Notes under the pieces: model-generated
Told to the model about the DNA's origin: nothing
Database searches by the model: none
Seen by the model: only the letters and a program-made list of their open reading frames with translations
Part shown: positions 14,333 to 25,756 of the stretch, in pieces
Position numbering within the stretch: the stretch's first letter is position 1
Layout: each line of letters starts with the position of its first letter
DNA from: Candidatus Eiseniibacteriota bacterium
GTDB lineage: Bacteria; Eisenbacteria; RBG-16-71-46; CAVPCR01
Length of the DNA: 64,000 bases
Reading direction: 5' to 3'
NCBI GenBank assembly: GCA_963823555.1
Contig: CAWGMA010000001.1
Location: forward strand, 1,472,001-1,536,000
Position numbers and translations under genes: made by a program

Positions 14333-15613
14333 TTAGTGGCCTTCCTCACCCGGGGCCTCGATGACCTCGCCGGAAGCCACGAAGCGGGAGGAGAACTGCT
14401 GCTCCACGGCGTTCGAGCCGATGCGGACGTTGCGGCCGATGCCCGCGCCATCGGGGATCCGGGCGTGCTTGCCGATGACGCTCAGGCCCGAGGACAGGTG
14501 CTCCGGGCAACCCCGGTTCGGGACGAGGAGATCTCCCTCTCCAACCCTGGCTTCGCGCCCGACATGCACGTTCTTGTCGATGATCACGCGATCGACATGG
14601 GCATTGGGTCCGATCCAGCTGTCATTGAAGATGATCGAGCGCTCGACCACGGCTCCCCGCTCGACCACGACGCCCGGTGACAGCACCGAGTCGCGCACCT
14701 CACCGTAGATGATGCATCCGTTCGAGAGAAGGCTGCGTTCGGCAGAACCGGACCCCACGAAACGGACGGGTGGGTAGTAGACGTCGCGGGTGTGGACCCG
14801 CCAATCGGGGTTCGCGAGGTTGAGAGCGGGCTCATCTGCGGTCAGATCCAGGTTGGCCTCATAGTAGGTGTCGAGCGTCCCAATGTCCTGCCAGTATCCA
14901 CGGAACGGAAAGGCATAGACACGGCAGCGTTCGAGCATGGACGGCAGCACACTCCGGCCGAAATCGTGCTTTGAGTCCTTGATGGTCGCATCCCGTTCGA
15001 GCTCACGGGCGAGCACGGAAGAACGGAAAATGTACACACCCATCGAGGCGGTGTTGATCGGCGGGCGCGAGTGCGGCTTCTCGATGAAGTTGCATACCCG
15101 TCCATCCGATTCCGTCTCGACGATGCCGAACTGCGAAGTCAGCTCCCACCTCACGGGGAGCACACCCATCGTGACGTCCGCCCGGTGATCGCGATGGAAC
15201 TCGAACATCTCCGTATAGTCCATCTCGTAGACATGATCGCCGGACAGGATGAGAACGTCCTCGACATTTCGTCGCTTGATCTCGCCCAGGTTCTGGTAGA
15301 CGGCGTCGGCGGTGCCGGCATACCAGTCGCTGGCCCGCCAGCTCAGATGAGGCTGCAAGAGCTGGATTCCGCCGTGCCGGCGGTCGAGGTCCCACGGTTT
15401 ACCGATGCCGATGTGCTCGTTCAGCGACTGCGGCTTGTACTGGGTGAGGATACTGACATCGACGATGCCGGAATTGACGCAGTTGGAGATCGTGAAGTCG
15501 ATGATGCGATACTTGCCGGCAAAGGGAACGGCGGGCTTGGCTCGCTTGTCGGAGAGCACGCATAGACGGCTACCGATCCCCCCGGCCATGATCACGGCAT
15601 AGCGAAGCGGCAT
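14333..15613 (-). CDS. glgC: Glucose-1-phosphate adenylyltransferase
   Basis: [55 protein letters not shown]; left-handed beta-helix C-terminus. Confidence 0.96.
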
Positions 15614-15619
15614 CGTGCC

Positions 15620-16906
15620 TTACTCCCGCCCTATGCTTCCCGCCAGCGGACCCGGCGTGGACGCACCCGCCGCGATCCGGCTGCCCGCCGGCAGGTCGAG
15701 GGACGCGAAATCGTCCGGTGCGGCGCTGACCTCGACGACAGAGCGGCGGCCGATACGCGCCGCGGGTGGGATCACCGCCATCTTGCCGACGACGATCACG
15801 CTCGAGCCAAGGGCTTCGGGCGGCTCCTGGATGGCCTCGCCGTGTCCCACGACGGCCCCCGCGCCCACCTGAACCCGCTTGTCGAGAATGGCCAGATCGA
15901 CGCGGGCGCCACGCTGGATGATGGTGTCCTGGAATACGATGGAGCTCTGAACCAGCGCTCCCTCCTCGACGATGGCTCCCGGAAAGAGGATCGAGTCCAC
16001 GACACGGCCGCGAACGACCGCTCCGTTGGCGACGAGCGATCGGGTCACCTCGGCGCCCCTGGTCAGCTTCACCGGCGGCCGCTCTTCGGAGGGCGTGTAG
16101 ATGCGCCAGTCGGGGTCGGCCAGCACCAGCCGCGGGCGAGTCCCCAGGAGCTCCATGTTGGCCCGGAAATAGGAGTCGATGGTGCCGACATCATCCCAGT
16201 AGCCATCGAAGACGTAGGTGTTGACCGGCCACCCTTCCCGCACCAGCGGCAGGATCAAGTCGAGGACCAGGTCCTTTGCTTCTCCACCCGGGCCGAGGCG
16301 CTCGTAGAGCAGTCGCGTATCCAGCACGTAGATGCCGAGATTGGCGATGGAGCTATGGGGCTGGGTCGGTTTCTCCTCGACCTCGAGAATCCGCCCCTGG
16401 CCATCCAGGCTGACGATGCCAAAGCGGCTGCGGTCCCAATCCGGCACCTGTTTCACCACCATCGTGGCGCGGCAGCCGGATTCCCGATGCAGTCGGAGCA
16501 GCTCGGCATAGTCCATCTTGTAGACCTGGTCGCCGGAGCACACGATCACCCATCGAGCCGCCCAGTTCTCGAGCACGTTCAAGTTCTGGGCAATGGCATC
16601 CGCCGTCCCTTGATACCAGATCGATTCCAGCCGACGTCCGTACGGCTGCAGGAGCTTGATGCCCAGATCGCGGCGATCGAGATCCCAGGTGGCGCCGGTT
16701 GCGATGTGCTCGTTGAGGGATACCGGCGCATACTGGGTCAGCACGGCGACGCGGGTGATATCGGAATTGGAGCAATTGGAGAGACAGAAGTCGATCACAC
16801 GGTACTTGCCGCCAAAGGGCATGGCCGAAGCCGGACGGTGGCTGGTGAGCACACCGAGCCCGGTGCCCTGTCCGCCGGCGAGAATCATGCTCACGACCTG
16901 CCGCAA
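15620..16906 (-). CDS. glgD: Second ADP-glucose pyrophosphorylase subunit (GlgD-like or divergent GlgC)
   Basis: Paralog of the adjacent gene with GTGL replacing GSRL and RPASAMP replacing RAKPAVP; retains WYQGTAD, SGD and EKP. Confidence 0.75.
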   Translation of the reverse strand: MRQVVSMILAGGQGTGLGVLTSHRPASAMPFGGKYRVIDFCLSNCSNSDITRVAVLTQYAPVSLNEHIATGATWDLDRRDLGIKLLQPYGRRLESIWYQGTADAIAQNLNVLENWAARWVIVCSGDQVYKMDYAELLRLHRESGCRATMVVKQVPDWDRSRFGIVSLDGQGRILEVEEKPTQPHSSIANLGIYVLDTRLLYERLGPGGEAKDLVLDLILPLVREGWPVNTYVFDGYWDDVGTIDSYFRANMELLGTRPRLVLADPDWRIYTPSEERPPVKLTRGAEVTRSLVANGAVVRGRVVDSILFPGAIVEEGALVQSSIVFQDTIIQRGARVDLAILDKRVQVGAGAVVGHGEAIQEPPEALGSSVIVVGKMAVIPPAARIGRRSVVEVSAAPDDFASLDLPAGSRIAAGASTPGPLAGSIGRE

Positions 16907-22812: not shown

Positions 22813-23163
22813 CTACTGTTGCCCGCCGTCGGCGCTCGGGCGGGCCTCCGGACCGGAATCGCCAGCCCAGCGGTCAGGCAATTCCACCTCTCCCCGCACC
22901 ATGGCCTTGAGCTGGTTGGATGGCTTGAACACCGGCACCAGCTTCGCGGGGACATTCACCTCGTCACCGGTGCGCGGGTTGCGCGCGCGGCGCGAGCGCC
23001 GGGCGCGCACCTTGAAGGTGCCGAAGCCCCGGATCTCGATGTGGTTGCCCTCACTCAACGCCTGCGCGATCGCGTTCAAGATCTCGTCGACGATGCGCGC
23101 GTTCTCGCTCTTGGACAAACGACTGCGCTTGCAGATGTCCTCGACAAGGTCGGCTTTCGTCAT
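22813..23163 (-). CDS. HU/IHF-family DNA-binding protein
   Basis: MTKADLV, IEIRGFGTF, ARNPRTG, PVFKPS; GGAGG RBS. Confidence 0.95.
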   Translation of the reverse strand: MTKADLVEDICKRSRLSKSENARIVDEILNAIAQALSEGNHIEIRGFGTFKVRARRSRRARNPRTGDEVNVPAKLVPVFKPSNQLKAMVRGEVELPDRWAGDSGPEARPSADGGQQ

Positions 23164-23305
23164 GGCCTTCCTCCGGAACCACTGGTTCTCGCTCGCCGCA
23201 GCGTAGACGAAGGTGCCGGACGGATCCCAGGGCGAGAGACGGTCACCGAGCCGCAACCGACCTGGCCGGCTCGACGCCGACTCGTCATGCGCGAACTCGG
23301 GGGGC

Positions 23306-23334
23306 AAACTACACCGGCCAAGATGTGATGTCAA
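23306..23334 (-). promoter_or_regulatory. Sigma70 promoter for HU/IHF-bS22
   Basis: TTGACA-N17-TAGTTT on the minus strand. Confidence 0.65.
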
Positions 23335-23410: not shown

Positions 23411-24295
23411 CTAGCGGTATTCGAGCCGTGCCCAGCCTCTGGGCAGGGTCAGCGCTCCGGCGACGCGCTCCTCGAACCAGCGCTGCCAGGCTGGGATGTG
23501 CTTGCGCTCGCGCACCGTCTCGGGCTCGCCCTCGATTCCAGCCATCCGCCCCGCCACGCGCACCGCCTCGTCCAGGTCGGCAAGGCGGTCGACCAGGCCG
23601 CTCTGGTAGGCCTGACGCCCGGAGAACAGACGACCATCGGCGAGCGCACGCACCGAATCCGCAGGCAAGGGACGGGAGGCGACGATGGCGTCGATGAACT
23701 GCTCGTGGACGTCACCGAGGACTCCGGTCAACCATTCCCGCTCCTCCGGTGTCAGTGGTCGGAACGGAGAGCCGGCATCCTTGGCCGAGCCGGCCTTGAT
23801 GACCTGATAGTCGACTCCGATCTTCTTCAAGAAGGCCGAGAGGTCCGGGAAGCTCATGATGACGCCGATGGAACCCGTGAGCGTGCCGGGCAAGGCGAAG
23901 ATCGAGTCGGCGGCGGTCGCTACGTAGTAACCGCCGGAAGCGGCGACATCGTCGAGCGCTGCGATGATGGGGATGCCATCGGCCTTGAACGCCTCGAGCC
24001 GGCTGATGATGCGTTGCGTCCGCCCAACCGCGCCACCGGGAGAGTTGACATGAAGGACCAGCGCCTTGACCGAGGTGTCCTCGCGCAGGCTCTCGAGCTG
24101 GTCGAGTACATCCTCATCGTCTCCGAGAACACCGAAGACCTCGACCACGCCGACCTTGGGGCCAGGGCTGGGCAGCTTGAACTCCCCACCTGCCAGCTGC
24201 ATGGAGGCGAACAAGATGAAGCCTCCGCCGATCACGAGCAGAAGCAGAATGAAGAGACTGCACCCGATCAACCAACCGCGGGGCTCTGAGGCCAT
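23411..24295 (-). CDS. sppA: Signal peptide peptidase SppA (S49, 36K type)
   Basis: N-terminal TM; NSPGG, AASGGYY, TGSIGV, ADGRLFSGRQA. Confidence 0.93.
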   Translation of the reverse strand: MASEPRGWLIGCSLFILLLLVIGGGFILFASMQLAGGEFKLPSPGPKVGVVEVFGVLGDDEDVLDQLESLREDTSVKALVLHVNSPGGAVGRTQRIISRLEAFKADGIPIIAALDDVAASGGYYVATAADSIFALPGTLTGSIGVIMSFPDLSAFLKKIGVDYQVIKAGSAKDAGSPFRPLTPEEREWLTGVLGDVHEQFIDAIVASRPLPADSVRALADGRLFSGRQAYQSGLVDRLADLDEAVRVAGRMAGIEGEPETVRERKHIPAWQRWFEERVAGALTLPRGWARLEYR

Positions 24296-24335: not shown

Positions 24336-24365
24336 ACGCTATCAAGCGATGGAGGAAGGTGTCAA
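24336..24365 (-). promoter_or_regulatory. Putative sigma70 promoter for sppA
   Basis: TTGACA-N18-TAGCGT on the minus strand. Confidence 0.5.
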
Positions 24366-24402: not shown

Positions 24403-24614
24403 AAAAGAAGAGGTTCCCCACCTCTGCCGTTCGTCGGGTCGTGAATCACTGCACCATCAAGAGACTGGGATCACAGCCCACGTCCCGCCGATTCGAACAG
24501 CGCAGGGAACCTAAGCTCTGGGGACCCTTGGCCGGCGTATCGACCGCCTGCTCGCAGGCGGTGAGGAGGTGGGAGGCTCGCCCCTCGCGAGCCTCCCGCG
24601 CCAGCATGGTCGAC
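24403..24614 (-). ncRNA. Candidate structured ncRNA: 5' three-way junction plus a ~100-nt 6S-like long hairpin
   Basis: Stems AGGTTCCC/GGGAACCT (24505-24512 with 24411-24418) and GCTGTTCG/CGAACGGC; two perfect hairpins at 24543-24562 and 24571-24597; G-U wobbles favour the minus strand; U-rich 3' tail; sigma54 motif upstream. Confidence 0.55.
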
Positions 24615-24625
24615 CTCGCATCAGG

Positions 24626-24640
24626 GCAATGCGCGTGCCA
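24626..24640 (-). promoter_or_regulatory. Sigma54 (-24/-12) promoter
   Basis: Exact TGGCAC-GCGCA-TTGC on the minus strand in an intergenic region. Confidence 0.7.
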
Positions 24641-24781
24641 CGGCCCATTGCCGCGCCCGGATTGACTGCTAGTTGATAGGGCAACAACGGGTTGACTCAG
24701 GGCACCCGAGGCGCGTCCGATCGTGTTCGGGTTGGCGCCAGGATGCTCGTGCGGGGAAAAGCCCCGGGTCGTGGGGAGATC

Positions 24782-25756
24782 TCACCCGCGGCGGACGCGG
24801 ATGCAGCTCACCAGATGCCCTGGCTTCTTGGCCTCGAGGAGGGGGGCGATCTCCTTGCAGTCCGGGATCACTTCGGGACAGCGCGGATGAAAGGCACACC
24901 CGGCGGGCGCCGCGCTGGGGTCCGGAGGTTCGCCCACCGTGTCGGCTACGCGGTTCGGGATCCCGGGTGCGAGTCGCGGGACTGCACTGAGCAACGCCTG
25001 TGTGTAGGGATGGAGGGCTCCGCTGAAGAGCACGCGCTTCGGTGCCAGTTCGACGATCTTGCCGAGATACATGACAGCGACGCGATCCGATACGTGCTCG
25101 ACCAGGCTCAGGTCATGGGCGATGAACAGGTACGCGAGTCCGCGTTGCTGGCGGAGATCGGCGAGCAGGTTCACGATCTGGGCTTGCACCGAGACATCGA
25201 GCGCCGACACGGGCTCATCGGCGATGATCATCTCGGGTTCCACCGCCATGGCACGGGCAATGCCGATGCGCTGGCGCTGCCCCCCTGAGAACTCGTGGGG
25301 GTAACGGTCGGCGTGATCGGGACGAAGGCCGACAAGCCTAAGGAGCTGGGCCACCCGGTCCCGCGCCGGTGGACCCGACGGGAACCCCTGCAGGGTCAAT
25401 GCCTCGCCGAGGATCATCCCGACCGAGAGGCGTGGGTTGAGGCTCGAATACGGATCCTGAAAGATGATCTGCATCCGGCGGCGGAGAGCCCTGAGCTCCT
25501 GCTTGCCGGCCTTGAGCACGTCCACCCCAGCGAAACGGACCTCACCCGAGCTGGGCTCGAGAAGCCGGAGAACGAGCCGAGCCACCGTCGATTTGCCGCA
25601 TCCCGATTCACCGACCAGTCCGAGGGTCTCACCCGGGGCGAGTTCGAACCCGATGCCGTCGACAGCGACCACGGATTCTCCGCGGCGACCGACGAGCCCG
25701 CGCCGGGCAGGGAACACTTTCCGGAGATCGCGCACCTCAAGGAGCGCCGCACTCAT
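24782..25756 (-). CDS. oppF: Oligopeptide/dipeptide ABC transporter ATPase (OppF/AppF)
   Basis: [38 protein letters not shown], Cys-rich C-terminal domain. Confidence 0.92.

What the first reader, a model, noticed from the sequence alone, without database searches (positions are those of the whole stretch)
24403..24640. Sigma54-dependent structured ncRNA candidate
Seen: a perfect TGGCAC-N5-TTGC element points into about 210 nt with no convincing ORF. The predicted transcript (from ~24614) folds into a three-way junction followed by a ~100-nt irregular hairpin and a U-rich end. Downstream sppA has its own sigma70-like promoter, so the sigma54 promoter seems to serve the RNA. A partial IHF-like site (TATCAA) and TTGA repeats lie at 24662-24697.
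Basis: partly seen in the sequence, partly recalled or inferred. Interest (0 to 1): 0.7.

Follow-up and report, generated by a model that had tools for sequence, protein, structure and literature searches.

The report
Half-length 6S RNA under sigma54 control
A conserved gene for a roughly 100-base hairpin, a half-length relative of the RNA-polymerase decoy 6S RNA, sits behind a sigma54-type promoter site alongside the normal 6S gene in most families of an uncultured bacterial phylum; it is likely transcribed on a signal and likely decoys RNA polymerase without the parts that select the housekeeping sigma factor.

Summary
The core is a 101-nt hairpin (24511-24411, minus strand). It is a shortened 6S RNA paralogue that keeps the terminal stem, downstream helix and pRNA-start-like motif but lacks the apical (-35-like) arm and most of the bubble. 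Matrices built only from other families' full-length 6S rank it second genome-wide, after the genome's normal 6S. A covariance model matched 99 of 151 genomes of this class (Ca. Eisenbacteria), nearly all once; at least 3 matches are not this type. The closing stem covaries. A sigma54 site lies within 200 nt upstream in 84 of 84 cores, against 3 of 84 on the opposite strand. The three-way junction is a genus-specific leader; the IHF/TTGA claim is not conserved; the 53-codon ORF is refuted. The window's family carries a degenerate start motif (0 of 3). The genome also holds a second short paralogue with a sigma70-type promoter. No RNA data exist, so transcription and polymerase binding are inferred. 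Ten literature searches found no natural half-length 6S; this scan noted short 6S-like RNAs on other DNA.

The parts
24753..24787 (-). Candidate enhancer (activator-binding) half-sites about 115-150 bp upstream of the -24 element; the first overlaps the oppF stop codon
   Evidence: Palindromic motif ATTTCCCC-N8-GGGGAAAT learned on 23 genomes outside f9/f10; held-out families score higher in the upstream window than in a control window (f9 median 6.3 vs 0.2; f10 3.9 vs -1.0; only 7 of 36 and 2 of 24 reach 10 bits); coordinates. Function inferred.
24626..24640 (-). sigma54 -24/-12 promoter element; predicted start near 24614
   Evidence: 84 of 84 homologues; minimum gap to the core 13 nt, which puts +1 three bases before the hairpin
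24512..24614 (-). Genus-specific structured 5' leader (three-way junction), likely trimmed from the precursor
   Evidence: z -4.95; same topology with a different second hairpin in G001; absent in G002; gap between promoter motif and core 13-159 nt across 84 genomes
24411..24511 (-). Core: 101-nt shortened 6S RNA paralogue (terminal stem + downstream helix + small capped bulge)
   Evidence: 33.6 bits, exact ends, best background 23.9; HMM without the own family, E 1.7e-8, top genome hit; covariation; Rfam 6S sub-threshold hits on homologues
24467..24479 (-). Motif at the position of the 6S pRNA start site (family consensus GRGCUGAUCC; here with a UG insertion)
   Evidence: E. coli U44 is the U of GAGCCGAU and is the pRNA start site (PMC3988568, passages)
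24403..24410 (-). U-rich run after the closing stem, likely 3' end / terminator tail
   Evidence: a U-run or a separate hairpin follows the core in the other families
24336..24365 (-). sigma70-type promoter of sppA (context; shows the RNA is a separate unit)
23411..24295 (-). sppA, peptidase S49 (downstream neighbour in families f1, f8, f9)
24782..25756 (-). oppF-type ABC ATPase (upstream neighbour in f1 and in 23 of 25 f10 genomes)

Best explanation
The locus encodes a half-length 6S RNA paralogue behind a conserved sigma54 site; it is likely transcribed when an enhancer-binding activator fires, likely trimmed from a ~210-nt precursor to the ~100-nt hairpin, and likely docks in the downstream-DNA channel of RNA polymerase as a decoy that would not select sigma70, because it lacks the -35-like arm and the -10-like bubble strand. 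SHOWN: 6S ancestry of both stem arms, covariation, conservation as a near single copy beside a full-length 6S, the sigma54 site, and loss of the apical arm and of the CACCU bubble motif. INFERRED: transcription, trimming, polymerase binding, and the target form (core enzyme or alternative-sigma holoenzyme rather than sigma70 holoenzyme). Short product RNAs starting at the conserved GAU would release it.
For: Arm matrices from 18 full-length 6S of other families rank three loci on top in G000: normal 6S 43.5 bits, this core 33.6 with exact ends, a third short paralogue 26.1; best background 23.9. Rfam RF00013 hits homologues in families f9, f5, f3 and f4 end to end with 83-95 central model positions replaced by 4-15 nt (26-33 bits; 34 bits, E about 3e-5 per genome). 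Closing stem on 70 sequences: 94.8% of cells paired, 118 two-sided changes against 44.6 in shuffles, at most 21 in slid controls (alignment fitted to a model). In an unfitted f9 alignment the inner helix also covaries (7 pairs, 27 cells vs 9.8). The motif GYURAUCC stands at the U44 position in 78 of 86 cores and is predicted mostly unpaired (mean unpaired probability 0.82 in f9, 0.92 in f10). CACCU-type motif: 22 of 22 full-length 6S, 7 of 86 cores. Engineered 78-82-nt B. subtilis 6S-1 without the -35 region still binds polymerase (about 10-fold weaker) and makes pRNA; helix P2 contacts beta and beta' (PMC8876501, abstract, introduction and section 3.1). sigma54 site in 84 of 84 vs 3 of 84 (reverse strand), 2 of 82 (farther upstream), 5.4% (shuffles).
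Against: The window's own copy has no Rfam 6S hit, and its family is the one where the start motif is broken (0 of 3). The bubble is reduced to a 3-6 nt bulge, whereas the engineered short 6S kept the whole bubble. The best-conserved part is the terminal stem, which PMC8876501 (section 3.1) says is dispensable for polymerase binding. E. coli and B. subtilis 6S do not bind core enzyme (PMC11077062, passages). The cap is invariant within f9 and f10 but differs between families, which fits a dedicated partner as well. A simulated pRNA does not give a uniform release hairpin (f8 mean 1 pair, f9 7.8). Three hits were left out before the promoter count (G027, G060, G039b); none has a site of 9 or more, so with them it is 84 of 87. 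Kin are not independent samples.
Confidence: 0.45

Rival explanations
1. The 6S terminal stem has been reused as a stable scaffold, and the RNA titrates a protein other than RNA polymerase (one that reads the terminal stem or the family-invariant cap).
For: Terminal stem is the most conserved part yet dispensable for polymerase binding (PMC8876501 section 3.1); the cap is invariant over about 35 columns in 26 f9 sequences and nearly invariant over about 30 in 20 f10 sequences while stems vary; the bubble is nearly closed.
Against: The invariant GAUCC lies exactly at the pRNA start position; no partner gene travels with the RNA, neighbours differ between families.
Confidence: 0.2
2. A weak but conventional sigma70-holoenzyme decoy, a natural version of the engineered short 6S-1, that adds a sigma54-controlled pulse of 6S activity.
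For: Short 6S-1 variants lacking the -35 arm still cycle on sigmaA polymerase (PMC8876501); a second short paralogue with a sigma70-type promoter exists in the same genome, so shortness is not tied to sigma54.
Against: The -10-like CACCU strand is lost too (7 of 86 vs 22 of 22); a full-length 6S is already present in 117 of 151 genomes over the Rfam cut-off.
Confidence: 0.13
3. A base-pairing small RNA that shows a C-rich, anti-Shine-Dalgarno-like loop and blocks ribosome-binding sites.
For: AUCC(C) is predicted unpaired and the motif resembles the 3' tail of the genome's own 16S rRNA.
Against: Loop pairs with the own sppA leader no better than with shuffled leaders (-9.5 vs -8.9 +/- 3.1 kcal/mol, n=45). 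The f10 loop 10-mer has only 2 sites outside the RNA in 5 genomes. Of 32 perfect complements examined (30 of 320 f9 sites, 2 f10 sites) 2 looked RBS-like, the rest lie in open frames. Imperfect G-U pairing was not searched genome-wide.
Confidence: 0.12
4. A cis-acting leader or attenuator of sppA.
For: Lies 115-290 nt upstream of sppA in f1, f8 and f9.
Against: sppA has its own promoter downstream of the RNA's end; other families place the RNA before other genes; a terminator-like feature follows the core.
Confidence: 0.04
5. The family is functional but the window's copy is decaying.
For: f1 lacks the intact start motif (0 of 3).
Against: All 3 f1 genomes keep promoter, hairpin (z -2.3 to -3.3) and synteny; G000 and G001 are 87% identical over the core stretch; the G000 arms score as high as typical members.
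Confidence: 0.06

Closest known systems
6S RNA / SsrS (Rfam RF00013), including paralogue pairs such as B. subtilis 6S-1 and 6S-2
   Same: Terminal stem sequence and structure, downstream helix, motif at the U44 pRNA start position; occurs as a paralogue beside a normal 6S.
   Different: About 89-106 nt instead of about 160-200; apical arm and -10-like strand missing; below the Rfam cut-off; sigma54 site upstream. [quoted passage not shown]
Engineered truncated B. subtilis 6S-1 variants 6S78 and 6S82cp (PMC8876501)
   Same: No -35-like arm, under 100 nt.
   Different: They keep the whole central bubble and drop the terminal stem; this natural RNA keeps the terminal stem and drops most of the bubble.
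Ms1 RNA, CoRP RNA and scr0792 (PMC11077062 passages; PMC4191392 and PMC9130861 search listings only)
   Same: Structured RNAs that bind core polymerase or polymerase without strict primary-sigma selectivity; scr0792 is about 85 nt.
   Different: Actinobacterial; no Rfam match to any such family here; in those species they occur without 6S, whereas here a normal 6S is present.
Small SRP RNA (RF00169)
   Same: About 100-nt rod.
   Different: The genome's SRP RNA lies elsewhere (C1:2005671-2005770, 72 bits); this locus does not match the model.

Membership tests
6S RNA (RF00013) | Terminal (closing) stem homologous to 6S in sequence and pairing | tested here: met
6S RNA (RF00013) | Reaches the Rfam gathering score 46.4 bits | tested here: not met
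   window copy: no hit; homologues 21-34 bits
6S RNA (RF00013) | Apical arm carrying the -35-like element; length about 160-200 nt | tested here: not met
   83-95 model positions replaced by 4-15 nt; cores 89-106 nt
6S RNA (RF00013) | Large central bubble with a -10-like 3' strand | tested here: not met
   CACCU-type motif 22 of 22 full-length vs 7 of 86 cores; equating this motif with the -10 mimic is my inference from the E. coli sequence and recall
6S RNA (RF00013) | pRNA start site motif after the downstream helix (E. coli U44) | tested here: inconclusive
   78 of 86 cores keep GYURAUCC, but 0 of 3 in the window's family
6S RNA (RF00013) | Binds the housekeeping holoenzyme and templates pRNA | not testable with these tools
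   no RNA run listed
sigma54-dependent transcription unit | GG-N10-GC element at fixed spacing, correctly placed | tested here: met
   84 of 84; never closer than 13 nt to the core
sigma54-dependent transcription unit | rpoN and activators in the genome | tested here: met
   rpoN in 193 of 206 genomes of the phylum
sigma54-dependent transcription unit | Upstream activator site | tested here: inconclusive
   palindromic motif enriched in held-out families but weak in most single genomes
sigma54-dependent transcription unit | Mapped start 12 nt after the GC, lost without rpoN | not testable with these tools
   needs dRNA-seq or in vitro transcription
Small SRP RNA (RF00169) | Matches the SRP model | tested here: not met
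   single match per genome elsewhere, 5 of 5 genomes
Ms1-type core-binding RNA | Binds sigma-free core polymerase | not testable with these tools
   no sequence match to any Rfam family; binding needs experiment

The most novel reading that the evidence does not exclude
This is the first 6S-type RNA aimed at a polymerase other than the housekeeping holoenzyme: sigma54 polymerase, once activated, makes a sigma70-blind promoter mimic that feeds back on sigma54 or core enzyme, and Eisenbacteria run a panel of three 6S genes (full-length, sigma54-driven short, sigma70-driven short) that divide control over polymerase forms.
Probability: 0.2. Interest if true: 0.92.

Novelty: new variant of a known kind. 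Interest (0 to 1): 0.76.

Why it matters
Described 6S RNAs are about 160-200 nt and select the housekeeping holoenzyme through -35- and -10-like parts. Nature has here deleted exactly those parts and kept the rest across at least 11 families, under a sigma54 site. That gives a ready natural deletion series to test what a minimal polymerase-binding RNA is, whether RNA decoys for other polymerase forms exist, and why the terminal stem of 6S is conserved although it is dispensable for binding. Such genes score below the Rfam cut-off, so surveys of 6S copy number would have missed them.

Tried and rejected
Rfam at gathering score over the whole window: 0 matches; E-value mode gave only chance hits. 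Being the genome's main 6S or SRP RNA: rejected, both lie elsewhere. 53-codon ORF: rejected. IHF/TTGA repeats: not conserved. No RNA holder listed among 23 runs, no evidence either way. Viral contigs: 0 matches with two patterns; phage records: only a 34-bp chance match in 3 records. The one genome-contig scan returned 2 FCPU426 loci; a 26-bit hit there lies in apparent coding sequence and model R2 found nothing in those 2 genomes, so range beyond this phylum is essentially untested. Metagenome pattern scan: 69 of 80 fetched loci (of at least 120) are family members resembling f9, f10, f12 or f18, or one new type (L199); 11 look like chance; the pattern was biased to known members. A local HMM of full-length 6S did not find the core because the arms are separated. 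Weak R1/R2 hits in G060, G047, G013 and G027b were judged not 6S-like; the G026 hit is the 5' half of its normal 6S. The apparent excess of the f9 loop 10-mer (46-105 per genome) is coding-sequence bias. A first fold of the G051 candidate used wrong coordinates and was redone. Ten paper searches found no natural half-length or sigma54-driven 6S and nothing on Eisenbacteria 6S. Wehner 2014 (the 6S survey), Chen 2017, Shephard 2010 and Wassarman 2018 are not held, so their text and supplements could contain something I did not see; subscription journals are not searched.

Full report
Observation. The sigma54 element is at 24640-24626 (minus strand), the only one in the window, 0.10 expected. The 217 nt below it fold well (z -3.74). 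No Rfam family reaches its cut-off in the window. The genome has rpoN, 17 strong sigma54-activator domains, a normal 189-nt 6S RNA about 110 kb away (C1:1385085-1385273, 88 bits) and a normal small SRP RNA. The lineage is Candidatus Eisenbacteria: a protein so named by NCBI is 99.7% identical to SppA of G030, a genome of the same class.

What is conserved. A DNA search of 41 genomes found the element in the two other genomes of the family, between oppF and sppA. In G001 the match runs from the promoter to the U-run. In G002 the promoter motif is 13 nt from the hairpin and the three-way junction is absent. So the core is the 101-nt hairpin at 24511-24411, and the junction is a leader that G000 and G001 share in topology. 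The 53-codon ORF is not conserved. The TCAA repeats are absent in both relatives.

The family. Looking upstream of sppA orthologues gave related hairpins in families f8 and f9. A covariance model from 15 of them (R1) matched 99 of 151 genomes of the class at E<=0.1, all but one once: f1 3/3, f8 8/8, f9 37/41, f10 35/40, f12 5/5, f17 3/4, f18 2/3, f3, f4 and f5 1/1 each, f14 1/2, f11 1/3, f16 1/15, and none in f2, f6, f7, f13 or f15. Three of these are not the sigma54 type: G026 is half of a normal 6S, G060 looks like chance, G027 is a sigma70-type paralogue. I examined 86 cores from 11 families (25 of the 35 f10 hits); they are 89-106 nt. Diverged hairpins behind a sigma54 site also stand before sppA in G003 (f2) and G051 (f13), which the models miss (z -3.0 and -3.6). 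An HMM built without the window's family finds the window's core as the top hit in the genome (E 1.7e-8, next 0.32). The closing stem covaries across families: 118 two-sided changes against 44.6 in shuffles and at most 21 in slid controls (that alignment was fitted to R1 and kin are not independent). In an unfitted alignment of 26 f9 sequences 7 of 37 pairs show two-sided changes (27 cells vs 9.8); in 20 f10-type sequences 4 of 29 do.

It is a shortened 6S. Rfam's 6S model, which I did not build, hits homologues in f9, f5, f3 and f4 from end to end but below its cut-off, with 83-95 central positions replaced by 4-15 nt, and at 34 bits (E about 3e-5) in five f9 genomes. It does not hit the window's copy. 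As a direct test I built matrices from the two stem arms of 18 full-length 6S of other families and scanned the whole own genome for pairs 80-200 nt apart: the normal 6S came first (43.5 bits), the window's core second (33.6, exact ends), a third short paralogue next (26.1), and the best background was 23.9. A full-length 6S over the cut-off exists in 117 of 151 genomes, so the short RNA is an extra copy. After the downstream helix, 78 of 86 cores read GYURAUCC. E. coli has GAGCCGAU there, ending in U44, the pRNA start site (PMC3988568 and PMC9670815, passages). The CACCU-type motif on the far side of the bubble is in 22 of 22 full-length 6S but 7 of 86 cores; reading it as the -10 mimic is my inference. 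Against a neat picture, the window's family is the one in which the start motif is interrupted (0 of 3).

The promoter. A site scoring at least 9 of 12 against the recalled consensus lies within 200 nt upstream of 84 of 84 cores, against 3 of 84 on the reverse strand, 2 of 82 farther upstream and 5.4% of shuffles. Two cores were dropped for short contigs. Three other hits (G027, G060, G039b) were left out beforehand and have no such site; with them the count is 84 of 87. The gap to the core is 13-159 nt and never less than 13, which would put +1 three bases before the hairpin. The 12 nt before the core are A-rich (A 0.37, A+T 0.47 vs 0.30), as expected for a processing site (inference). A palindrome ATTTCCCC-N8-GGGGAAAT is found 120-250 bp upstream; it is enriched in held-out families but weak in most single genomes. 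rpoN is in 193 of 206 genomes, so co-occurrence cannot discriminate.

A third 6S gene. Model R2 found 108-115-nt hairpins with the same terminal stem, another cap and a sigma70-type promoter in f2, f12 and f15. Their neighbours predicted a copy in the own genome, and it was there (C1:639560-639673; z -5.1); copies also occur in G001, f7 and f16. Shortness is therefore not tied to sigma54, which tempers the idea of a sigma54-specific feedback.

Mechanism. What the RNA keeps is everything downstream of the 6S start site; what it lost are the parts that sigma70 reads. PMC8876501 (abstract, introduction, section 3.1) reports that the helix next to the bubble contacts beta and beta', and that 78-82-nt variants without the -35 region still bind (about tenfold weaker) and cycle. 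I therefore commit to a polymerase decoy with little sigma70 selectivity, made on a signal through a sigma54 activator (0.45). The same paper says the terminal stem is dispensable for binding, PMC11077062 (passages) says 6S does not bind core enzyme, and the bubble here is only a bulge; hence real weight for a protein-titrating scaffold (0.2), a weak sigma70 decoy (0.13) and a base-pairing RNA (0.12). Tests for base pairing were negative but limited. No RNA run was available: every step after DNA is inferred.

Comparison and novelty. It works most plausibly like 6S and descends from 6S, but fails three defining features (cut-off, apical arm, full bubble), so I file it as a new variant, not a member. 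PMC11077062 names about 160 nt as among the shortest known 6S. Ten searches showed no natural half-length or sigma54-driven 6S; the main 6S survey and structure papers were not held. Earlier notes of this scan describe short 6S-like RNAs in other genomes; I could not check them, and none matched these sequences. Range outside Eisenbacteria is untested in effect.

Verdict. Real ncRNA gene about 0.95; 6S-derived about 0.93; sigma54-driven about 0.9; polymerase decoy of some kind about 0.58. Interest 0.76.

Noticed in passing
G000:C1:639560-639673 (-), L307:1507-1622; also L306, L308, L309, L312, L314, L315, L317, L279, L280, L283, L285, L291: Second family of short (108-116 nt) 6S-like RNAs with a sigma70-type extended -10 promoter, in families f1, f2, f7, f12, f15 and f16; G000 and four f12 genomes thus carry three 6S-type genes.
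   Followed up: partly
L011:673-847 (-), G004: 175-nt divergent 6S-like RNA (16 bits on RF00013) with a sigma54 site 13 nt upstream: a possible full-length sigma54-driven form.
   Followed up: no
L282:1187-1279 (G004), L281 (G017), L287 (G015), L288 (G067), L098:993-1115 (G039), L108 (G073): Further 6S-like hairpins of 93-167 nt with other caps; G015 has a sigma54 site (10 of 12), G067 a weak one (8 of 12), the others none seen.
   Followed up: no
L030:1277-1374 (G003) and L082:372-478 (G051): Diverged ~100-nt hairpins behind a sigma54 site upstream of sppA that the models miss; probably orthologues that lost the GAUCC cap.
   Followed up: partly
f9 loci, e.g. L032, L038, L052, 40-90 bp upstream of the promoter: AT-rich tracts between the candidate enhancer and the sigma54 site, as expected of IHF sites; an HU/IHF-family gene lies right downstream of sppA in the window (22813-23334 frame).
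   Followed up: no
f10 loci, e.g. L133-L157, just 3' of the core: A conserved GGGCCC...GGGCCC-closed structured element follows the core in most f10 genomes.
   Followed up: no
G000:C1:800708 (+): Perfect sigma54 site before a pilM-like reading frame (label from recall of the sequence type, not searched).
   Followed up: no
L020, G001:C2:462670-464089: rpoN of G001 shows 3 in-frame TGA or frameshifts in the match; perhaps long-read assembly errors.
   Followed up: no
L057-L063, L068, L069, L073, L075-L077, L079, L080: In families f4, f6, f11, f14, f15 and f18 an sppA homologue lies directly behind genes that look like microcompartment shell/vertex genes (label from recall, not searched).
   Followed up: no
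window 14333-16906 (-): Two tandem glgC-like (ADP-glucose pyrophosphorylase-like) genes (label from recall).
   Followed up: no
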